Below are positions 5,643 to 24,031 of a stretch of 64,000 nucleotides of DNA, in pieces. The notes beneath the pieces are model-generated. The model ran no database searches and was not told the DNA's origin. It saw only the letters and a list, made by a program, of their open reading frames with translations. Source of the stretch: Escherichia phage vB_EcoM_ESCO47; the sequence record OM386662.1; one strand, written 5' to 3'. Within the stretch, counting starts at the first letter, position 1. The number at the start of each line of letters is the position of its first letter. The position numbers and the translations under genes are program-made.

Positions 5643-7085
5643 GTGGTAGAAATTATTTTGTCTCATCTTGTATATGACCAGACTTATTTTTCTAAAGTCT
5701 GGCCGTATATGGATTCTGAGTATTTTGAGCGTGGACCGGCAAAAAATGTCTTTAAAATTATAAAGAACCACGTTAACGAATACAGTGCTATGCCATCTAT
5801 TAACGCATTAAAGGTGGCTTTAGATAATAGTTCTTTAACCGAAAACGAGTATAAAGGAACTTCCGATTTAATCGATAAATTGGTCGATTCTCCTGAAGAC
5901 CCTGATTGGTTGGTTAAAGAAACCGAGAAATATGTCCAGCAAAAAGCAATGTATAATGCTACGTCTAAAATCATTGAGATTCAGACTAATGCTGAACTTC
6001 CACCTGAACAACGTAATAAGAAAATGCCTGACGTAGGAGCTATTCCAGACATTATGCGTCAAGCACTTTCAATCTCATTTGATAGTTATGTCGGTCATGA
6101 CTGGATGGATGACTATGAAGCTCGTTGGTTATCTTATCAGAATAAAGCACGTAAGGTCCCGTTCAAATTAAACATTTTGAATAAAATCACTAAAGGTGGT
6201 GCTGAAACCGGTACACTGAATGTTTTAATGGCTGGTGTTAACGTCGGTAAATCTTTAGGCCTTTGTTCACTTGCTGCAGATTATCTTCAAACAGGTCATA
6301 ATGTTCTTTATATTTCCATGGAAATGGCTGAAGAAGTTTGTGCTAAGCGTATAGATGCAAACATGCTTGACGTATCACTTGATGATATCGATGATGGTAA
6401 TGTATCTTATGCTGAATATAAAGCCAAGATGGAAAAATGGCGTTCAAAATCCACATTAGGACGTTTAGTAGTTAAACAGTATCCTACCGGCGGAGCTAAT
6501 GCTAATACATTCCGTGCATTACTTAACGAATTAAAACTCAAGAAGAACTTCGTTCCTTCTGTAATCATGATTGACTACTTGGGTATTTGTGGGTCTTGTC
6601 GTATCAGAGTTTACACTGAAAATAGCTACACATTAGTTAAAGCTATCGCAGAAGAACTTCGTGCTTTAGCGGTAGAATCTGAAACTGTTCTATGGACTGC
6701 AGCTCAGGTTGGTCGAGCAGCATGGGACGCTTCTGATATGAACATGAGTGATATCGCAGAATCAGCAGGTTTACCGGCGACAGCAGACTTCATGTTAGCA
6801 GTAATTGAGACCGAAGAACTTGCTCAAGCAGAACAGCAGCTCATTAAACAAATCAAATCACGGTATGGTGATAAGAACAAATGGAATAAATTCCTGATGG
6901 GTGTACGTAAAGGCAATCAGAAGTGGGTTGAAATTGAACAAGAAGGTATGAACACCACAAACACGGTAAATGAAAACGCAGGTGCTCAGATGCGTCACGC
7001 GGAAGCGAATCGTACGGAACGCGTAGGAAAAGCTAAAGCGACTAGAGCAGATTTAGACAATCTAGCCAATGAATTAAAATTTTAA
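5643..7085 (+). CDS. 41: replicative DNA helicase gp41 (DnaB-like)
   Basis: 480 aa; Walker A GVNVGKS; DnaB-family architecture; synteny with uvsX/40/61. Confidence 0.95.
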   Translation: MVEIILSHLVYDQTYFSKVWPYMDSEYFERGPAKNVFKIIKNHVNEYSAMPSINALKVALDNSSLTENEYKGTSDLIDKLVDSPEDPDWLVKETEKYVQQKAMYNATSKIIEIQTNAELPPEQRNKKMPDVGAIPDIMRQALSISFDSYVGHDWMDDYEARWLSYQNKARKVPFKLNILNKITKGGAETGTLNVLMAGVNVGKSLGLCSLAADYLQTGHNVLYISMEMAEEVCAKRIDANMLDVSLDDIDDGNVSYAEYKAKMEKWRSKSTLGRLVVKQYPTGGANANTFRALLNELKLKKNFVPSVIMIDYLGICGSCRIRVYTENSYTLVKAIAEELRALAVESETVLWTAAQVGRAAWDASDMNMSDIAESAGLPATADFMLAVIETEELAQAEQQLIKQIKSRYGDKNKWNKFLMGVRKGNQKWVEIEQEGMNTTNTVNENAGAQMRHAEANRTERVGKAKATRADLDNLANELKF

Positions 7086-16483: not shown

Positions 16484-17793
16484 AATTTGATGATTTGACG
16501 GACGGCCAGAAAAACGCCTTTAATGTTGTTATGAAGGCAATCAAAGAAAAGAAACACCATGTAACTATTAATGGTCCGGCTGGTACAGGTAAAACAACAC
16601 TCACACGGTTTATTGTTGAAGCTCTTATTTCAGCAGGTGAATCAGGTGTTATCTTAGCAGCCCCGACTCACGCCGCCAAAAAGGTTCTAAGTAAATTGGC
16701 CGGACAAGAAGCATCTACTATCCATAGTATTCTTAAAATCAACCCAACAACATACGAAGAAAACGTGTTATTTGAACAGAAACAGGCTCCTGATCTGGCA
16801 CTATGTCGAGTATTAGTGTTTGATGAAGCATCGATGTGTGATCGAAAACTTTTCCAGATTATGTTGGCAAGTATTCCAAAATGGTGTACAGTAATTGGCG
16901 TAGGTGACAGATGTCAGATTCGTCCTGTTGACCCAGGTGAAACAACAGCATATTTGAGCCCATTCTTTACGCATAAAGATTTTGTCCAATGTGACCTTAC
17001 AGAAGTCAAACGTAGTAATGCACCAATTATTGATGTTGCTACCGATATTCGTAATGGTAAATGGATTTATGATAAAATTGTTGACGGACATGGCGTTCAT
17101 GGCTACACTGATTTAAAATCATATATGATGAACTATTTTAATATCGTCAAAACGCCGGAAGACCTTTTCGAAAATCGAATGATGGCCTTCACAAATAAAT
17201 CTGTGGATAAATTAAATTCTGTTATTCGACGTAAGCTTTATCAAACAGAAGCTCCATTTATTAAAGATGAAGTTATTGTCCTTCAAGAACCTGTCACCAA
17301 GTCGTATAAACTCGATGGCAAAAATATGACTGAAATGCTTTTCAATAATGGCCAATTCGTTCGTATTAGAGACGCAGTTGAAACGTCCACATTTGTTAAA
17401 GCAAAGGGTGTTCCAGGCGAATATATGATACGATACTGGAATCTTAGTATTGAAACCTACGGTGATGATGAAGAATATAACAGAGAAGATATAAAGGTTA
17501 TTTCTTCGGATGAAGAGCTTTACAAATTTAATCTATTTTTAGCAAAAACAGCTGAAACGTATAAGTTCTGGAATAAAGGCGGTAAAGCTCCTTGGAATGA
17601 TTTCTGGGATGCTAAGCGAATGTTCACAAAGGTTAAAGCCCTTCCGGTATCAACCTTCCATAAAGCACAAGGTATGTCTGTTGATACGGCCTTTGTTTAT
17701 ACACCGTGTATCCATTACGCTGATTCTGAATTAGCAAAACAACTTCTGTACGTCGGTGCCACTCGTGGACGATTTGACGTCCATTATATTTGA
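16480..17793 (+). CDS. dda: Dda DNA helicase (SF1)
   Basis: 437 aa; Walker A GPAGTGKTT; near-colinear match to T4 Dda as I recall it. Confidence 0.95.
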   Translation: MKFDDLTDGQKNAFNVVMKAIKEKKHHVTINGPAGTGKTTLTRFIVEALISAGESGVILAAPTHAAKKVLSKLAGQEASTIHSILKINPTTYEENVLFEQKQAPDLALCRVLVFDEASMCDRKLFQIMLASIPKWCTVIGVGDRCQIRPVDPGETTAYLSPFFTHKDFVQCDLTEVKRSNAPIIDVATDIRNGKWIYDKIVDGHGVHGYTDLKSYMMNYFNIVKTPEDLFENRMMAFTNKSVDKLNSVIRRKLYQTEAPFIKDEVIVLQEPVTKSYKLDGKNMTEMLFNNGQFVRIRDAVETSTFVKAKGVPGEYMIRYWNLSIETYGDDEEYNREDIKVISSDEELYKFNLFLAKTAETYKFWNKGGKAPWNDFWDAKRMFTKVKALPVSTFHKAQGMSVDTAFVYTPCIHYADSELAKQLLYVGATRGRFDVHYI

Positions 17794-18482
17794 TTGAGGA
17801 AATTATGAATAATGATGTTATTATAGACTTTGAAACATTCGGTAATACGTCTAAAGCTGCGGTTATTGACCTTGCAGTTATTGCGTATAATTCCAACCCT
17901 GAAGTCGTAGAGACGTTTGAAGAACTCGTTCAACGTGGTAAACGAATTAAATTTAATCTTGCTTCACAGAAAGGAAAACGTGTTTTTGCTAAGACTACTA
18001 TGAAATGGTGGAAAGAGCAGTCAGATGAAGCTCGCAAAAACTTGGCACCAACTGAAGACGATGTTACCACTTTAGAGGGTATTAAAATCTTTTTGGACTA
18101 TTGCCGAGATAATAAAGTGGACCAATGGAAATCACAGATGTGGTGTCGTGGTATGAGCTTTGACTTTCCGATTCTGGTTGATTTAATTCGAGATCTTTAT
18201 CGTGACGAAGGTGTCCCAGAAGCAGAAATCGATACTGATAAACTTGAACCGGTTAAATTCTGGGCTCAACGTGACATCCGTACTGCAATTGAAGCTTACT
18301 CGTTGACGCGTGGATTAAGTATGTGTCCATTGCCAATGGGTACATTAAAAGGATTCGTTGCCCACGACAGTATTCATGATTGTGCTAAAGATATTTTGAT
18401 GTTAAAATATGCTCAACGTTATGCACTTGGACTTGAAGATGTGCCCGAGAATCCAGACCCATTAAGTGTAAAACAACGATAA
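17790..18482 (+). CDS. dexA: exonuclease A (DEDD 3'-5' exonuclease)
   Basis: IIDFETFG exo motif I near N-terminus; follows dda as in T4. Confidence 0.75.
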   Translation: MIEEIMNNDVIIDFETFGNTSKAAVIDLAVIAYNSNPEVVETFEELVQRGKRIKFNLASQKGKRVFAKTTMKWWKEQSDEARKNLAPTEDDVTTLEGIKIFLDYCRDNKVDQWKSQMWCRGMSFDFPILVDLIRDLYRDEGVPEAEIDTDKLEPVKFWAQRDIRTAIEAYSLTRGLSMCPLPMGTLKGFVAHDSIHDCAKDILMLKYAQRYALGLEDVPENPDPLSVKQR

Positions 18483-18486
18483 AACA

Positions 18487-18536
18487 GTTTACATCCTCTG
18501 TAGATATGTTATAATTCGTTCTATCAACTACAGAGG
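18487..18536 (+). promoter_or_regulatory. early promoter-like element with inverted repeat
   Basis: -35 GTTTAC 18487-18492, -10 TATAAT 18510-18515; arms CCTCTGTAG 18495-18503 and CTACAGAGG 18528-18536. Confidence 0.5.
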
Positions 18537-18556
18537 TAAGTAATACGATTACTGAT

Positions 18557-19048
18557 ATGGATCTAGCAAGTATGTACGGCACTCTTATTAAACCATTAAA
18601 AATTAAGGAACCAAAAATGGCTATCAAAATCGGCAAAACCTACAAACTGGTTGAACCTGAAATTAAAACTCCTGTACTGGTCGCTTCATATCATACTTTA
18701 AGCCTCCTTTTAGGTGATGAAGATTTCGAAATCGTATCTTTTAAAAGACATGTTTGGTTTGAAGGTTATGAAATAACGACTCGTCATCGTTCTTCAGGCC
18801 GAGTGGAAAATATTACTGTTTATACACACGAACTCGAGTTGTTTGAAGAATTGGTTCAAAAAGTTGTTGAAGACCCCACCGATCTTCTGTGTAAAGCAGT
18901 AAGCATTCGTCGTCCATTTGATAATCGTCGGATTTGTGGATGGGTAACTGATCAGTGGATTGAAGATGGTGTTGAGCTCTTGAACGTGGTCCATGATGGT
19001 GATTTTACTGTATGTCCACGTAGTGCAGTGGTTAATGTATTGAATTAA
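18557..19048 (+). CDS. hypothetical protein
   Basis: Alternative start ATG 18617 has AAGGAA RBS (143 aa); promoter element upstream. Confidence 0.45.
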   Translation: MDLASMYGTLIKPLKIKEPKMAIKIGKTYKLVEPEIKTPVLVASYHTLSLLLGDEDFEIVSFKRHVWFEGYEITTRHRSSGRVENITVYTHELELFEELVQKVVEDPTDLLCKAVSIRRPFDNRRICGWVTDQWIEDGVELLNVVHDGDFTVCPRSAVVNVLN

Positions 19049-19051
19049 TAG

Positions 19052-19099
19052 TTTTACTTCTCCTCTAGACATGATACTATAAACTTATCAACTAGAGGA
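19052..19099 (+). promoter_or_regulatory. early promoter-like element with inverted repeat
   Basis: -35 TTTTAC 19052-19057, -10 TACTAT 19075-19080; arms TCCTCTAG 19061-19068 and CTAGAGGA 19092-19099; ATG at 19107. Confidence 0.45.
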
Positions 19100-19106
19100 G
19101 AATAAT

Positions 19107-19634
19107 ATGTTAGTTTATCGAGTAGAACGTAGTTTTTGTACCCAAAGAGAATATTTGCCTTCAGTCGGATACGAAAACGGTGAAATGGTTCGTACCTGGG
19201 AGATATCCTGGAATAAAGAACCACGCTCACCTTACGGATGGTCTGGCACCGACAACTCTGAAGAAACCTGGGAATTCCTTGATAAACACGGGATATTGTC
19301 AGGCAACTTCTATCATAACGACGGCAATATAAACGCCCCTAATCGTCCTACAATCAAAAATGATCACCTCTTATCAAAAAATATTTTAAAACAAAATAAC
19401 CTTGATTTCATAGACCAAATAGCTGATTGGTTAGAGACAGGTGAATTTTACTTTGCGTTTGATACGGTCGACACGGTGTACCGATGGTTTGATAACTCCG
19501 ATGACATAGAACTCTTGAAGGCTAAAGGTTACTACATCGCGGTCTATGATGCTCCTGACGTCATTTTAGGCGACTCTCAACTTTTGTTCAAACGTTCTTC
19601 GGCAGAACAAGTTGATTTTATTTTAATAAAATGA
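19107..19634 (+). CDS. hypothetical protein (175 aa)
   Basis: Promoter element and GAGGAG RBS upstream; no motif recognised. Confidence 0.5.
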   Translation: MLVYRVERSFCTQREYLPSVGYENGEMVRTWEISWNKEPRSPYGWSGTDNSEETWEFLDKHGILSGNFYHNDGNINAPNRPTIKNDHLLSKNILKQNNLDFIDQIADWLETGEFYFAFDTVDTVYRWFDNSDDIELLKAKGYYIAVYDAPDVILGDSQLLFKRSSAEQVDFILIK

Positions 19635-19663
19635 TGTACAAACTGATAGTATTTTGTTACTAT
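19635..19663 (+). promoter_or_regulatory. early promoter-like element
   Basis: -35 TGTACA 19635-19640, -10 TACTAT 19658-19663, then AGACCTATCAA; ATG at 19692. Confidence 0.45.
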
Positions 19664-19691
19664 AGACCTATCAAAACAAGAGGAGAACATT

Positions 19692-19886
19692 ATGAAAACT
19701 TTATTAACTCAAGATCAATTTGAAGATATCCTTTTCGACCCAGAATTAGTTGTTGTTCAAAAAGAAATTACTAGTGGTCTTGAACACCATTCTTACGTAT
19801 ACGTTTATGAAAATGACAAACCAGTTATGGTTGCAGTACGTCACATCACAGGCGAAGGCACAACTTACTGGAAGGAAGCAATCTAA
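19692..19886 (+). CDS. hypothetical protein (64 aa)
   Basis: Promoter element and AGGAG RBS upstream. Confidence 0.45.
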
Positions 19887-20308
19887 TGGCTATTAAATTT
19901 GAAGTTAACAAATGGTACCAATTTAAAGATAAACGTGCCCAAGAAGAGTTTATTAAAGACCACACTGATAATGGGATTTATGCACGACGTCTTGGCATGG
20001 AACCATTTAAAGTATTAGATGTTGACCATCTTGGTCGTCCTACTAAAATTGTGACATCTACTGGCATGGTTGGATACGCAACAGGCGGTGATATCCTTGA
20101 TGAAAACTTTATCTGGCTCTCCACGAATGAAGCAGAGTTCTTTGTCGAAGTTGGAAATCCATACCAGGCAGCTGAAGAACAAGAACATGAAGAGCAAGAA
20201 CCAATGCCAGAATTGACTGAGTTCCCTTTACTGAAAGTTACTATTGAAAATAATGAACAAGCATGGTCTTTGTATCAAATGTTGAAAGCTCACTTTAAGG
20301 AACAATAA
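19886..20308 (+). CDS. hypothetical protein (140 aa)
   Basis: Stop/start overlap with upstream ORF; acidic C-terminal half. Confidence 0.5.
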
Positions 20309-20487
20309 TGCCGTTATACGACTATAAATGCCAATCTGAAGATTGTGGTCATGAATATGAAAAAATTAAAAGAATTTCTGAACGAGAAAACGATGTTTGC
20401 CCTGAATGTCATCGTCTGTCTACTCGTCGGGTTTCTGCTCCTAAACATGTGAACGGTGGTTTTTACGACTTACTTAAGAAGGATTGA
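20308..20487 (+). CDS. zinc-ribbon protein (FmdB-like, 59 aa)
   Basis: [18 protein letters not shown]...CPECHRLS: two CxxC pairs typical of FmdB-family Zn ribbons; below the ORF-track cutoff. Confidence 0.45.
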   Translation: MPLYDYKCQSEDCGHEYEKIKRISERENDVCPECHRLSTRRVSAPKHVNGGFYDLLKKD

Positions 20488-20489
20488 TT

Positions 20490-20915
20490 ATGGCTTTTAA
20501 AGGTTTTGAAGTTGGTAAGAAATATCGTATTATCAAAGGACAGGAAGATAATTTCTTGAGAATTCTTAATACGACTGGTAAACGTCTTAATACTAATCTG
20601 CATACTACTTTATTGTCCAAAGATTTTATTGTGGAAGAGATGATTGGTTATGGTGTTTCGATTATTGCTGTAGAAGCTGTAGGCGATTACGGCCGAACTA
20701 TTCATAGTATGCAAGGTGATATTCTGCTTTATGGTGCAGAATTTAAATTCTTTGAAGAAGTTCCGGAACCAGATACAGCTGTCGATTTCAAAAAAGGCTC
20801 TATAGAATTTGTTGATGGTTCGGTGATCGTATCAGGCGATGTGGTCATTACAGTTAAAAGTGAACAAGGGCGTTTGGCTGCAATTGATGCACTTCAGAAA
20901 ATTAAATTTAAATAA
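20490..20915 (+). CDS. hypothetical protein (141 aa)
   Basis: ATG 20490 preceded by AAGGA; listed ORF begins at TTG 20484; terminator follows. Confidence 0.5.
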   Translation: MAFKGFEVGKKYRIIKGQEDNFLRILNTTGKRLNTNLHTTLLSKDFIVEEMIGYGVSIIAVEAVGDYGRTIHSMQGDILLYGAEFKFFEEVPEPDTAVDFKKGSIEFVDGSVIVSGDVVITVKSEQGRLAAIDALQKIKFK

Positions 20916-20933
20916 GGGCTTCGGCCCTTTTTG
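20914..20933 (+). terminator. rho-independent terminator
   Basis: AAGGGC-TTCG-GCCCTT then TTT directly after stop at 20915. Confidence 0.6.
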
Positions 20934-20956
20934 CTTTAGATTTCGGATGATAGAAT
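20932..20956 (+). promoter_or_regulatory. candidate MotA-dependent middle promoter upstream of gene 39
   Basis: MotA box core TGCTTTA 20932-20938, 12-bp spacer, -10 TAGAAT 20951-20956. Confidence 0.5.
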
Positions 20957-20978
20957 ACCTTCATAACGAGGAGACAAC

Positions 20979-22796
20979 ATGATTAAAAATGAAATTAAAG
21001 TATTATCAGACGTAGAACATATTAAGAAACGTAGTGGTATGTATATTGGTTCTTCGGCTAAAGAAGCACATGAGCGTTTTTTGTTTGGTAAATATCAACA
21101 AGTTGAATATGTTCCTGGTCTGGTTAAATTAATCGATGAGATTATTGACAACTCGGTTGATGAAGCTATTCGTACATCATTTAAGTTCGCAAATAAAATT
21201 GATGTGCAAATTAAAAATAATCAAGTTTCGGTGGAAGATAACGGACGTGGTATTCCTCAAGGTTTAGTTACCGACCAAACAGGTGAACAAATTCCTGGGC
21301 CTGTAGCAGCCTGGACTATTCCAAAGGCCGGCGGTAACTTTGGCGATGACTCTGAACGCAAGACCGGTGGTATGAACGGCGTCGGGAGTAGTTTAACTAA
21401 TATCTTCTCTACGTTGTTTACAGGCATCACGTCAGATGGCGAAAATGAAATCACTGTTAATTGTTCAAACGGAATGGAAAACAAATCATGGTCTTCTAAG
21501 AAATCTAAAGGTAAAGGAACTAAAGTAATCTTCACTCCTGATTTCTCTTCATTTGAAGAGCATAATTTATCTCAAATTTATTTAGATATTACTTTAGACC
21601 GACTTCAAACATTGGCAGTCGTTTATCCTGATATCAAGTTCACATTTAATGGTAAAAAGGTTGATGGTAATTTTAAACGATTTGCTAAACAATTTGGCGA
21701 AGATAACATCATTCAAGAAAACGATAAAGTGTCAATCGCATTCACAACATCGCCTGACGGTTTTCGACATTTGACGTATGTGAACAACATTCATACTAAA
21801 AATGGTGGACATCATGTTGAATGTGTAATGGATGATATCTGCGAACATCTTTTGCCCGGTATTAAAAAGAAATATAAGGGTATTGAGGTAACTAAAGCTC
21901 GTGTTAAAGAATGTCTCACGATGCTGATGTTTATTCGTGATATGAGCAACATGCGTTTTGATTCTCAGACTAAAGAACGTTTAACGTCAACGTATGGTGA
22001 TATTCGTAATCATATCCAATTAGATGCTAAGAAAATTGCTCAGTCACTTCTTAAAAATGAAGCTCTGATTATGCCTATTGTTGAAGCAGCATTAGCTCGT
22101 AAATTAGCAGCAGAAAAGGCCGCCGAAACTAAAGCAGCTAAAAAGGCCACTAAAGCAAAAGTTCATAAGCATATTAAAGCTAATCAATGTGGTAAAGATG
22201 CAGATACGACATTGTTCTTAACAGAAGGTGATTCGGCAATTGGTTATCTCATTGATGTTCGTGACCGTGAACTACACGGCGGATTCCCATTACGTGGTAA
22301 GGTGATGAATAGCTGGGGTATGTCATATGCTGATATGATGAAGAACAAAGAGCTCTTTGATATCTGTGCTATCACAGGTCTTATTCTCGGTGAAAAGGCA
22401 GAGAACACGAACTATCGTAATATCGCAATTATGACCGATGCCGATCATGACGGTCTTGGAAGTATCTATCCGGCTTTGCTTGCTTTCTTTAGTAATTGGC
22501 CTGAATTGTTTGAACAAGGACGTATTCGCTTTGTTAAAACTCCGGTAATTATTGCACAAATTGGCAAAACACAAAAATGGTTTTATACTGTAGCTGAGTA
22601 TGAAGAAGCTAAAGAATCATTACCAAAACACGGTATTCGATATATTAAAGGACTTGGTTCACTTGAAAAATCCGAATACCGTGAAATGATTCAGAATCCA
22701 GTTTATGACGTAGTTAAATTGCCTGAAAACTGGAAAGAGTTGTTTGAAATGTTGATGGGTAATGACCCGGATCTTCGTAAAGAATGGATGTCCTAA
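20979..22796 (+). CDS. 39: DNA topoisomerase II large (ATPase) subunit, fused gp39+gp60 equivalent
   Basis: 605 aa GyrB-like; continuous frame with no bypass gap or inserted element. Confidence 0.92.
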   Translation: MIKNEIKVLSDVEHIKKRSGMYIGSSAKEAHERFLFGKYQQVEYVPGLVKLIDEIIDNSVDEAIRTSFKFANKIDVQIKNNQVSVEDNGRGIPQGLVTDQTGEQIPGPVAAWTIPKAGGNFGDDSERKTGGMNGVGSSLTNIFSTLFTGITSDGENEITVNCSNGMENKSWSSKKSKGKGTKVIFTPDFSSFEEHNLSQIYLDITLDRLQTLAVVYPDIKFTFNGKKVDGNFKRFAKQFGEDNIIQENDKVSIAFTTSPDGFRHLTYVNNIHTKNGGHHVECVMDDICEHLLPGIKKKYKGIEVTKARVKECLTMLMFIRDMSNMRFDSQTKERLTSTYGDIRNHIQLDAKKIAQSLLKNEALIMPIVEAALARKLAAEKAAETKAAKKATKAKVHKHIKANQCGKDADTTLFLTEGDSAIGYLIDVRDRELHGGFPLRGKVMNSWGMSYADMMKNKELFDICAITGLILGEKAENTNYRNIAIMTDADHDGLGSIYPALLAFFSNWPELFEQGRIRFVKTPVIIAQIGKTQKWFYTVAEYEEAKESLPKHGIRYIKGLGSLEKSEYREMIQNPVYDVVKLPENWKELFEMLMGNDPDLRKEWMS

Positions 22797-22818
22797 GCTC
22801 CTTCGGGAGCTTTATTTT
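22796..22818 (+). terminator. rho-independent terminator after gene 39
   Basis: AGCTCC-TTCG-GGAGCT then TTTATTTT. Confidence 0.6.
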
Positions 22819-22838
22819 AATTTTAATAAGGCTTAATT

Positions 22839-23939
22839 ATGAAAGTTATGTTTATCCCATCTCGTGCAGTCCCATTTAATCCTGACCGTGTACAAGGTGG
22901 TCTTGAAGCGGTACATTTAAATGTGTTGAAATATTTAGTTTCTATCGGTGCCGATATTGATTATATCGGTTTTGATAACGACACATTTGGTGATTGGAAA
23001 GTTACACACCATCCTGTTGGCCATCTTACTAAATTCAGTCTAGGTATGAGTTATACTATGGCTCGTAAGATTGTTGAACTGGCCGGCATCCATGAATACG
23101 ATTTTGTTGTTACTATGGAACCGACTAAACTAACCGTTCAGGCAATTAAAGACGCAGGTCTCTCTAAAGTTCATAAGAATTTTATGGCAACACCATTTGA
23201 ACCTGTATCTCGTGGCATTGTTCAAATTTGGGACCAGACTATTCAAATTCATAAGAACGGTGGTAAGAGTTATGCTCCTACTAAAGCCTTCCGTGAATTT
23301 GAACGCAAATATTGTCATATGACTTCAGGTCTGACAGACAAAATTGATTATGATTATTGGCGAGCAAATCCGTTGTTTGAAGCCGAAGATTATCCGGTTA
23401 TTTGTTTGAATGAGAAACCTGAAGTTCTTCCAGCAACTGATCTGATTATTAGTGCACAACGTTATGACACTAAAATGCGTCGTACTGATGTTGCTCTTGA
23501 AGCGATTAAAGCGCTCGGCGAAAATGGTGCAGGATACTGTCCTAGTAAATGGGCACCACCGGCTAAGTATCCAGTAACTATTGATGCTCCACATAGTGAA
23601 ATCATGGAACGCCTTAAAACAGCTAAAGCACTTATCAATACGTGTCCTGACACCGGCACGGTAGAGAATAGTTCTATTGAAGCTATTTCTAAAGGTGTAC
23701 CTGTGATTCAGCTAGTCTTTAAAGATTATCCACATGCTACGTTTGAATATGACCCTGACACGGTACGTGTAGAGATTGATGCTTCCACCCCTAAGAAAGA
23801 AGTAGTTATGCTTTACACAAAAGCTGTATTAGAATTCACTGACACATACGAATCACGAGTCAAACGTGCAGAATATGTATGGCAAAAGTATAATCGGGAT
23901 GCAGTTGTAGCGATGTGGGATAAAATCTTCACAGCGTAA
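22839..23939 (+). CDS. GT-B fold glycosyltransferase (candidate DNA hmC glycosyltransferase)
   Basis: 366 aa; C-terminal TGTVENSSIEAISKGVPVIQ resembles the nucleotide-sugar binding motif of GT-B enzymes; T4 has no such gene between 39 and rIIA. Confidence 0.55.
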   Translation: MKVMFIPSRAVPFNPDRVQGGLEAVHLNVLKYLVSIGADIDYIGFDNDTFGDWKVTHHPVGHLTKFSLGMSYTMARKIVELAGIHEYDFVVTMEPTKLTVQAIKDAGLSKVHKNFMATPFEPVSRGIVQIWDQTIQIHKNGGKSYAPTKAFREFERKYCHMTSGLTDKIDYDYWRANPLFEAEDYPVICLNEKPEVLPATDLIISAQRYDTKMRRTDVALEAIKALGENGAGYCPSKWAPPAKYPVTIDAPHSEIMERLKTAKALINTCPDTGTVENSSIEAISKGVPVIQLVFKDYPHATFEYDPDTVRVEIDASTPKKEVVMLYTKAVLEFTDTYESRVKRAEYVWQKYNRDAVVAMWDKIFTA

Positions 23940-24031
23940 ATCCTGAATAGCCTGAGGCACTATTACACATAAGATGATAAATTATATGGTCTTTGGTAAT
24001 AGTGTCATAGGAATCTACTGAAGAGAATATT

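What the first reader, a model, noticed from the sequence alone, without database searches (positions are those of the whole stretch)
20308..20487. FmdB-like zinc-ribbon micro-protein in the dexA-39 interval
A 59-aa ORF with two CxxC pairs (CQSEDCGHEY...CPECH) matches the FmdB-type zinc ribbon pattern. It is coupled to flanking ORFs by overlapping stop/start codons and is below the ORF-track length cutoff.
Basis: inference. Interest (0 to 1): 0.3.

Follow-up and report, generated by a model that had tools for sequence, protein, structure and literature searches.

The report
Phage gene 39.2, GroEL-modulating zinc ribbon
The small ORF is real: it is gene 39.2 of T4-like phages, a 59-residue zinc-ribbon protein already annotated in hundreds of phage genomes, whose T4 version has been shown experimentally to adjust the host's GroEL protein-folding machine, so the finding is correct but ordinary.

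Summary
Window 20308-20487 (+) is a genuine 59-aa gene. It scores above the curated cut-offs of Pfam Zn_ribbon_8 (49.3 vs 34.4 bits) and NCBIfam TIGR02605, the FmdB family zinc ribbon (48 vs 31.3 bits). Its frame is kept in 954 phage records. It is under strong purifying selection (dN/dS 0.02-0.15). It sits in the same dda-dexA...39 interval in five further genera.

It is the ortholog of T4/RB69 gene 39.2: 58/59 residues match RB69 and about 82% match T4. RB69, T4 and many other records already annotate it, usually as "FmdB-like transcriptional regulator". That name has no experimental basis. T4 Gp39.2 (NwgI; Ang & Georgopoulos 2012) shifts host GroEL toward its open state and is required on certain groEL mutant hosts.

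Two details in the finding are wrong. The first Cys pair is C-x4-C, not CxxC. Only the upstream junction overlaps (TAATG); the downstream gene most likely starts at an ATG 2 nt after the stop.

One link may be new. M. tuberculosis Ruc (Rv0991c), a redox-regulated chaperone, belongs to the same Pfam family and aligns with the 39.2 clade over its whole length (hhalign 99.4%). Both experimentally studied members therefore act in chaperone networks.

Verdict: already known, low interest.

The parts
20308..20487 (+). Gene 39.2 (NwgI ortholog) coding sequence, 59 codons plus TGA
   Evidence: ORF list. 58/59 residues identical to RB69 RB69p006. 99.4% nt identity to RB69. dN/dS 0.02-0.15. Pfam and NCBIfam scores above cut-off.
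20308..20433 (+). Zinc-ribbon core, residues 1-42 (MPxYxYxC ... CPxC); four beta-strands
   Evidence: Pfam match covers residues 1-42. AlphaFold2 model has pLDDT about 87-89 over residues 1-40, with strands 3-8, 16-20, 28-30 and 37-41.
20329..20346 (+). First zinc knuckle, C8-x4-C13 (TGC 20329-20331, TGT 20344-20346)
   Evidence: Read from the sequence. C8 is invariant in the clade. The second ligand varies between Cx4C, CxxC, CxC and CxxH.
20398..20409 (+). Second zinc knuckle, C31-P-E-C34 (TGC 20398-20400, TGT 20407-20409)
   Evidence: Read from the sequence. C34 is invariant. C31 and P32 are at least 90% conserved across 104 family members.
20437..20469 (+). Post-ribbon motif A44-P45-x-x-V-N-G50-G51-F52-Y53-D54, the clade signature
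   Evidence: P45 and G51 are invariant. A44, G50, Y53 and D54 are at least 90% conserved in 23 clade members. hhalign aligns the motif to the KGxG[FW]YxTD motif of cellular FmdB/Ruc proteins. Model confidence is lower here, pLDDT about 66.
20297..20310 (+). Translation start region: AAGGA Shine-Dalgarno (20297-20301) and TAATG stop/start overlap with the goF-like gene (20306-20310)
   Evidence: Read from the sequence.
19886..20308 (+). Upstream gene, goF-like (140 aa); its stop overlaps the 39.2 start
   Evidence: phrog_622 at E=1.9e-39 plus goF phrogs. Annotated goF in RB69, RB32 and T4 at the same position.
20490..20915 (+). Downstream gene (141 aa, RB69ORF005c type); ATG lies 2 nt after the 39.2 stop, with its own AAGGA at 20479-20483
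   Evidence: Sequence. Annotated start in NRG-P0074. phrog_622 at E=1.5e-21.
20914..20929 (+). Intrinsic-terminator-like hairpin (AAGGGC-TTCG-GCCCTT followed by a T run); likely end of the transcription unit that contains 39.2
   Evidence: Scan. A terminator is annotated at the same place in NRG-P0074 and Miller.
18488..18515 (+). Best sigma-70-like promoter match upstream (TTTACA-16-TATAAT with TG); candidate early promoter for the unit
   Evidence: Scan, 11 of 12 matches. This is a consensus match only. The total number of promoter-like sites in the region is no higher than in shuffled sequence.

Best explanation
The ORF is the ortholog of T4/RB69 early gene 39.2 (product Gp39.2, also called NwgI), a minimal member of the Zn_ribbon_8 ('FmdB') family.

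Residues 1-42 fold into a four-stranded zinc ribbon. It is predicted to hold one Zn through C8, C13, C31 and C34. A short conserved tail follows (AP..VNGGFYD).

The gene is read from a polycistronic message together with the goF-like gene, to which it is translationally coupled (TAATG), and the following gene. The unit ends at the terminator at 20914-20929.

The function is transferred from T4. The protein acts on the host GroEL chaperonin and shifts its open/closed equilibrium toward the open state that accepts the co-chaperonin (host GroES or phage Gp31). This keeps folding of phage proteins working in hosts whose GroEL is suboptimal. The gene is dispensable on ordinary laboratory hosts.

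Shown here: the gene is real, it is under selection, it is syntenic, it belongs to the family, and it is orthologous to 39.2.

Taken from the literature on T4: the GroEL effect.

Inferred: that this 98%-RB69-identical protein does the same, that it binds zinc, and (speculatively) that the GGFYD tail is the contact surface.
For: Orthology: 58/59 residues are identical to RB69 RB69p006. The protein is 82.5% identical to T4 and 80.7% to RB32, where the gene is labelled 39.2. The order goF - 39.2 - (39.1-type gene) - 39 is the same.

Conservation: 954 phage records carry a match, 911 of them over at least 80% of the protein. dN/dS is 0.02-0.15, with synonymous sites saturated between genera. The gene lies in the dda-dexA...39 interval in Krischvirus, Pseudotevenvirus, Muldoonvirus and Moonvirus.

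Family: Pfam 49.3 bits and NCBIfam 48 bits, both above cut-off.

Fold: the AlphaFold2 model has mean pLDDT 80.7 with a confident ribbon core. The best viral structural match is T4 Q01434, the protein 'in the Gp39-comCA intergenic region'.

Function: PMC4396842 states that Gp39.2 shifts the open/closed equilibrium of GroEL and permits T4 growth on several groEL mutants. PMC5153855, by the discoverer, describes a 58-aa peptide that shifts GroEL toward the open conformation able to bind GroES; a T4 39.2 deletion is blocked on specific groEL hosts. Both cite Ang & Georgopoulos, Genetics 190:989 (2012).

From my own recollection of that abstract, not checked here: the gene was first isolated from RB69, and the RB43 and RB49 homologs behave alike.

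Support from a relative: M. tuberculosis Ruc, a zinc-binding chaperone co-regulated with hsp60/hsp70, is in the same family.
Against: No experiment exists on this phage's protein. The primary paper could not be read here, so the biochemical details rest on secondary summaries and my memory. How Gp39.2 contacts GroEL is unknown. The tail motif is also conserved in cellular family members that are not known to act on GroEL, so it may be structural rather than a GroEL-binding element. Zinc binding is predicted, not measured. Some clade members have odd ligand spacings (CxC, CxxH). No solved structure resembles the model beyond generic zinc ribbons (all Foldseek E > 0.1 against PDB).
Confidence: 0.78

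Rival explanations
1. It is a transcriptional regulator, as the common annotation 'FmdB-like transcriptional regulator' says: a zinc ribbon that binds DNA or RNA polymerase and changes early or middle phage transcription.
For: The label is carried by phrog_1076 and by RefSeq records of RB69, T4 and others. The neighbouring genes are early transcription or RNA modulators (MotB-like, goF, cef). Weak Foldseek resemblance to RNA-polymerase-associated zinc ribbons (RbpA, RpoP/Rpb12, YdjO-SigA model), with E 0.5-2.5.
Against: No experimental basis for the name turned up in the literature searches. No DNA-binding domain was detected beyond the ribbon. The structural matches are not significant and include unrelated ribbons such as MCM, ribosomal proteins and aRF1. 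The two members that have been studied both act on chaperones.
Confidence: 0.07
2. It works like M. tuberculosis Ruc: a redox switch that releases zinc on oxidation and then holds unfolded proteins (a holdase) for the host's Hsp70/Hsp60 systems, rather than acting on GroEL itself.
For: Both are in the same Pfam family: Ruc P0163 scores 52.6 bits and the window protein 49.3 bits. Profile-profile alignment gives probability 99.4%, E=1.2e-21, over 57 columns. Ruc binds one zinc through C8, C11, C29 and C32, with the same 17-residue spacer, and is linked to chaperone genes including groES/groEL.
Against: Ruc needs its long disordered C-terminal half for holdase activity, and a 1-49 fragment is inactive. 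The phage protein ends 5 residues after the GGFYD motif. Several clade members replace a knuckle cysteine with histidine (CxxH), which fits poorly with a disulfide switch. The T4 genetics are allele-specific for groEL and groES (and my recollection of the 2012 abstract).
Confidence: 0.1
3. It is an accessory factor of the phage type II topoisomerase, because it sits just upstream of gene 39 in several genera.
For: It lies immediately upstream of the topoisomerase large-subunit gene in Krischvirus ECD7 and Pseudotevenvirus Miller, and one gene away here and in RB69.
Against: A terminator separates it from gene 39 here and in Miller and NRG-P0074. In Muldoon and KM16 several unrelated genes intervene. 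No topoisomerase phenotype is reported in the papers read, whereas a GroEL phenotype is.
Confidence: 0.03
4. It is a chance ORF, not a gene.
For: The region is AT-rich and the mechanical list holds 78 ORFs of at least 25 aa in 6 kb.
Against: Curated family thresholds are passed. dN/dS is 0.02-0.15. The frame is kept across six genera. A Shine-Dalgarno sequence is present at the correct spacing. The T4 gene has a genetic phenotype.
Confidence: 0.01

Closest known systems
Bacteriophage T4/RB69 Gp39.2 (NwgI), modulator of host GroEL (Ang & Georgopoulos 2012)
   Same: Same gene. 58/59 residues are identical to RB69 and about 82% to T4. Length is the same (58-59 aa). Position between goF and gene 39 is the same. 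Zinc-ligand pattern (Cx4C...CxxC) and GGFYDLL tail are the same.
   Different: Only the last residue differs from RB69 (D instead of G). The upstream genes in this phage are a different mosaic: goF is 87% and cef about 77% nt-identical to RB69, against 99.4% for 39.2. Activity was not tested for this copy.
Pfam PF09723 Zn_ribbon_8 / NCBIfam TIGR02605 'FmdB family zinc ribbon protein' (CxxC_CxxC_SSSS)
   Same: N-terminal MPxYxYxC, two cysteine knuckles 17 residues apart, and a following (S)AP...GxG[FW]Y motif. Scores are above both curated cut-offs.
   Different: The first knuckle carries a 2-residue insertion (Cx4C). The Ser-rich, low-complexity C-terminal tail that gives the family its 'SSSS' name is absent. 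The tail motif is NGGFYD rather than KGxGWYxTDY.
Mycobacterium tuberculosis Ruc (Rv0991c), redox-regulated chaperone (Becker et al. 2020, PMC7448276)
   Same: Same Pfam family. Alignable over the entire phage protein (hhalign 99.4%). Four ligands with the same spacer. Both are functionally tied to the Hsp60/Hsp70 folding machinery.
   Different: Ruc is 110 aa with a disordered tail of about 60 residues that is required for holdase activity, and it interacts with DnaK. The phage protein has no such tail, and its reported target is GroEL. Pairwise identity is only 28% over 40 residues.
Phage co-chaperonins Gp31 (T4) and CocO (RB49)
   Same: Phage-encoded proteins that adapt host GroEL to phage needs. 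This is established knowledge and is cited in PMC5649160.
   Different: They are GroES-like heptameric lids with a different fold and are essential. Gp39.2 is a monomer-sized zinc ribbon, non-essential on standard hosts, and acts as a modulator rather than a lid.

Membership tests
Pfam Zn_ribbon_8 (PF09723) / TIGR02605 FmdB family zinc ribbon | Profile score above the curated cut-off | tested here: met
   PF09723: 49.3 bits against 34.4, E=5e-13. TIGR02605: 48 bits against 31.3, E=9.4e-13.
Pfam Zn_ribbon_8 (PF09723) / TIGR02605 FmdB family zinc ribbon | N-terminal MP-x-Y-x-Y-x-C start and two cysteine knuckles about 17 residues apart | tested here: met
   MPLYDYKC. C13 to C31 is separated by 17 residues. 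M1, P2, Y4, C8, C13, C31, P32 and C34 are at least 90% conserved in 104 family members. The first knuckle is Cx4C instead of CxxC.
Pfam Zn_ribbon_8 (PF09723) / TIGR02605 FmdB family zinc ribbon | Post-ribbon GxG[FW]Y motif | tested here: met
   NGGFYD aligns with KGxGWYxTD in the profile-profile comparison. 53 of the 150 listed representatives carry the cellular form and 17 the phage form.
Pfam Zn_ribbon_8 (PF09723) / TIGR02605 FmdB family zinc ribbon | Ser-rich or low-complexity C-terminal extension ('SSSS') | tested here: not met
   The protein ends 5 residues after GGFYD. This extension lies outside both models' core and is variable in the family, so it does not bar membership of the domain family.
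T4-like phage Gp39.2 / NwgI orthologous group | High sequence identity to T4/RB69 Gp39.2 over the full length | tested here: met
   58/59 to RB69. 82.5% to T4 GT7 and 80.7% to RB32 '39.2'.
T4-like phage Gp39.2 / NwgI orthologous group | Conserved position in the early dda-dexA...goF-39.2-39 cluster, same strand | tested here: met
T4-like phage Gp39.2 / NwgI orthologous group | Modulates GroEL: suppresses groEL/groES alleles and is required on certain groEL hosts | not testable with these tools
   Known for T4 from the literature only.
Ruc-type redox-regulated chaperones | N-terminal four-ligand zinc ribbon homologous to Ruc | tested here: met
   hhalign probability 99.4%, E=1.2e-21. Ruc's identity was verified against the published primers. 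Ruc scores 52.6 bits on Pfam.
Ruc-type redox-regulated chaperones | Disordered hydrophilic C-terminal domain needed for holdase activity | tested here: not met
   Only about 9 residues follow the position equivalent to Ruc G49, and they are not hydrophilic or disordered in composition (GFYDLLKKD).
Ruc-type redox-regulated chaperones | Oxidation-triggered zinc release and anti-aggregation activity | not testable with these tools
   Needs biochemistry.
Transcriptional regulators (as the annotation implies) | A recognisable DNA-binding or RNA-polymerase-binding domain | tested here: not met
   Pfam finds only the ribbon. Foldseek hits to RNAP-associated ribbons are non-significant, E > 0.1.

The most novel reading that the evidence does not exclude
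The whole Zn_ribbon_8 ('FmdB') family may be a chaperone-network family rather than a family of regulators. On this reading the conserved module (zinc ribbon plus GxG[FW]Y) docks onto Hsp60/Hsp70 machines. Cellular members such as Ruc add a disordered tail that holds client proteins. T4-like phages have captured a tail-less version (Gp39.2) that keeps only the docking and modulating part and uses it to bias host GroEL. No held paper mentions both NwgI and Rv0991c, and the Ruc paper does not mention phages. The homology between the two characterised proteins therefore appears not to have been pointed out.
Probability: 0.3. Interest if true: 0.5.

Novelty: already known. Interest (0 to 1): 0.17.

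Why it matters
For this window, very little: the gene is a known, annotated and functionally studied early gene of T4-like phages.

Two practical points follow. First, the widespread annotation 'FmdB-like transcriptional regulator' is misleading for this gene. The only experimental data for the phage protein point to GroEL modulation, and the only studied cellular relative (Ruc) is a chaperone. Second, recognising that NwgI and Ruc are homologous over the whole phage protein gives a testable idea for a very large family of unknown function. Ruc homologs are reported in most bacterial phyla. The idea is that the ribbon plus GxG[FW]Y module is a chaperone-machine interaction unit.

Tried and rejected
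- The primary paper (Ang & Georgopoulos 2012) is not held under its PMC id or its DOI. I relied on two papers that summarise it.
- A literature search for a demonstrated function of 'FmdB' zinc-ribbon proteins gave nothing useful, apart from a Tn-seq note that the domain of Burkholderia BCAL0878 looks essential.
- A sequence search of PDB gave only chance-level hits to ribosomal protein bL31, E 0.3-0.5.
- Foldseek against PDB gave nothing below E=0.1, only generic zinc ribbons. No solved structure informs the mechanism.
- The first word-indexed homolog search found only 8 close relatives. The exhaustive representative search was needed to see the family: 255 representatives at E<=1e-3.
- Rfam found no RNA family in 17000-24000. 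PADLOC found no defence-system match. An overlapping RNA element or a defence/anti-defence label is therefore not supported.
- Promoter scan: the number of sigma-70-like sites is no higher than in shuffled sequence (14 against 11.5±3.3). Only the 11/12 match at 18488-18515 is worth naming, and even that is just a consensus match.
- I considered that the GGFYDLL tail mimics the GroES mobile loop (GGIVL). I keep this only as speculation, because the same motif is conserved in cellular family members and the model is less confident there.
- A GroEL complex could not be modelled with the tools at hand.

Full report
**1. The observation.**
The + strand carries an ORF at exactly 20308-20487. It runs from ATG to TGA and encodes 59 aa: [59 protein letters not shown].

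- An AAGGA Shine-Dalgarno sequence lies at 20297-20301, 6 nt before the ATG.
- The stop of the upstream ORF (19886-20308) overlaps the start as TAATG.
- The first cysteine pair is C8-x4-C13, not CxxC. Only C31-x2-C34 is CxxC.
- Downstream, the mechanical ORF list starts the next ORF at TTG 20484, which overlaps the TGA. An ATG at 20490, 2 nt past the stop, has its own AAGGA at the same 6-nt spacing. That ATG is the start annotated in relatives.

Two details do not.

**2. Is it a gene?**
Yes, on four lines of evidence.

- Family match: Pfam Zn_ribbon_8 at 49.3 bits (gathering score 34.4, E=5e-13). NCBIfam TIGR02605 'FmdB family zinc ribbon protein' at 48 bits (cut-off 31.3). phrog_1076 at E=2e-12.
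- Spread: tblastn finds the frame in 954 of 50,697 phage records, 911 of them over at least 80% of the protein.
- Selection: among 16 distinct coding sequences from Mosigvirus- and Tequatrovirus-type genomes, every informative pair has dN/dS between 0.02 and 0.15. Synonymous sites are saturated between genera while the proteins stay 80-93% identical.
- No competing feature: no Rfam family and no defence-system model overlaps the region.

**3. What it is.**
The window is a T4-like (Mosigvirus/RB69-type) phage. The gene order is dda, dexA..., cef, goF, this ORF, a 141-aa gene, a terminator, then gene 39 (topoisomerase II large subunit). This matches RB69, RB32 and T4, where the ORF at this position is gene 39.2.

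- The RB69 product differs only in the last residue.
- The coding sequence is 99.4% nt-identical to RB69, whereas goF is 87%, cef about 77% and the motB.2-like gene 73% identical.
- The gene also sits in the dda-dexA...39 interval in Krischvirus ECD7, Pseudotevenvirus Miller, Muldoonvirus and Moonvirus KM16.

**4. Anatomy of the clade.**
An alignment of 23 members gives this signature: MPxYxYxC ... (K/R)ISER ... CPxC ... AP..[VI][NH]GG[FY]YD.

- Invariant positions: M1, C8, C34, P45, G51.
- Nearly invariant positions: P2, Y4, Y6, R26, A44, G50, Y53, D54.
- The second ligand of the first knuckle varies: Cx4C here, and CxxC, CxC or CxxH elsewhere.
- In some members the second knuckle is CxC.

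AlphaFold2 with a 104-sequence alignment gives mean pLDDT 80.7. It shows a confident four-stranded ribbon (residues 1-42, pLDDT about 88) and a less confident tail (about 66).

Foldseek finds nothing significant in PDB, only generic zinc ribbons with E > 0.1. A sequence search of PDB also finds nothing. In the viral library the top hit is T4 Q01434, followed by phage 'FmdB' proteins.

**5. What it does.**
The label 'FmdB-like transcriptional regulator' is only a family name. I found no experimental support for a regulatory role.

The T4 gene has been studied. PMC4396842 states that Gp39.2 shifts the open/closed equilibrium of host GroEL and permits T4 growth on several groEL mutants. PMC5153855, by the discoverer, describes a 58-aa peptide that shifts GroEL toward the open conformation able to bind GroES or the phage co-chaperonin. 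It also reports that a T4 39.2 deletion is blocked on specific groEL mutant hosts. Both cite Ang & Georgopoulos, Genetics 190:989 (2012), which is not held here.

From my own memory of that abstract, unverified here: the gene was first isolated from RB69, and overproduction is toxic.

With 98% identity to RB69, the most likely function of the window's protein is the same modulation of GroEL. That transfer is an inference.

**6. A link that may not have been noted.**
M. tuberculosis Ruc (Rv0991c) has these published properties:

- It is a redox-regulated chaperone that binds one zinc through C8, C11, C29 and C32.
- It needs its disordered C-terminal half for holdase activity.
- It interacts with DnaK and is co-regulated with hsp60/hsp70.
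- Its gene neighbours chaperone genes, including groES/groEL, in many phyla.

I retrieved the mycobacterial protein (P0163) and confirmed its identity against the primers published in that paper: the N-terminal codons, the C8S/C11S and C29S/C32S primers, the 1-49 truncation and the C-terminal TTAAAAV.

It scores 52.6 bits on Pfam Zn_ribbon_8. A profile of the 39.2 clade aligns to a profile of Ruc/FmdB proteins with probability 99.4% and E=1.2e-21 over 57 columns. That is the entire phage protein, with GGFYD matched to GxGWYxTD.

The phage protein is therefore in effect the Ruc N-terminal module without the client-holding tail. The Ruc paper does not mention phages, and no held paper mentions both proteins. 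Both experimentally studied members of this family act in chaperone networks. This weakens the 'regulator' label and suggests a family-wide hypothesis, stated under the novel case.

**7. Rivals.**

- A transcription-factor role rests on the name and on non-significant fold resemblances.
- A Ruc-like holdase role is disfavoured by the missing tail and by Cys-to-His replacements in the clade.
- A topoisomerase accessory role rests only on adjacency, which is broken by a terminator here and by intervening genes in other genera.
- A chance ORF is excluded.

**8. Verdict.**
The feature is an already known, annotated and functionally characterised gene. Interest is low. The one modest point of added value is the NwgI-Ruc homology.

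Noticed in passing
window 19886-20308 and 20490-20915: Gene 39.2 is flanked on both sides by members of the same PHROG (phrog_622, GoF family). The goF-like gene matches at E=1.9e-39 and the downstream 141-aa gene (RB69ORF005c type) at E=1.5e-21, both over full length. Direct BLASTP between the two is not significant. The downstream gene may be a further member of the LSm-like GoF/MotB.1/Frd.2 family described in PMC12152347.
   Followed up: partly
window 19107-20978: There is a sharp mosaic boundary near the goF/39.2 junction. Nucleotide identity to RB69 is 73.5% (19107-19634), about 77% over part of cef, 87.5% (goF), 99.4% (39.2), 92% (20490-20915) and 100% for the intergenic region before gene 39. 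The cef allele here is shorter (64 aa against 75 aa) and divergent.
   Followed up: partly
window 18496-19060: The dexA-cef interval lacks the two MotB-like genes present in RB69 and NRG-P0074. It carries instead a single 163-aa gene (18557-19048; phrog_2333 with a MotB-like C-terminus). No record in the phage collection covers at least 80% of window 18400-20500.
   Followed up: partly
L004 (T4 RefSeq NC_000866) 5702-5839, minus strand: The T4 reference annotates a truncated 45-aa 39.2. It has one extra T (GCTTCC against GCTCC) and a few further base differences relative to T4 GT7, RB32 and this window. The extra T shifts the frame; the other genomes encode 58-59 aa. The T4 GT7 record leaves the gene unannotated.
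   Followed up: yes
window 20345-20452 (+1 frame ORF inside 39.2): Two database proteins (P0007 from Shigella phage vB_SsoM_113 and P0008 from Salmonella phage Manna, both 47 aa) are 39.2 N-termini that run into this alternative frame after the CP codons (...VCPNVIVCLLVG...). Their frame differs from the intact gene from the CPKC codons onward, where a one-base loss in the AAA (Lys) codon would produce this reading. They are assembly errors or natural frameshift variants.
   Followed up: no
window 20979-22796 and 22839-23939: Gene 39 here is the unsplit 605-aa form (39 plus 60 fused, as in RB69). It is followed directly by a 366-aa glycosyltransferase-like ORF. The homing endonuclease gene that NRG-P0074 carries between the two is absent.
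   Followed up: no
L039-L048, L054-L058 and others (IMG/VR contigs): Many unrelated environmental phage contigs encode 80-90-aa FmdB-type proteins that start with the identical MPLYDYKC. After the ribbon they carry a conserved '(R/K)PD(G/Q)GF(R/K)(E/D)V(I/M)SKIK...HP(K/R).T(I/M)RDY' extension. This is a distinct phage subfamily of unknown role.
   Followed up: no
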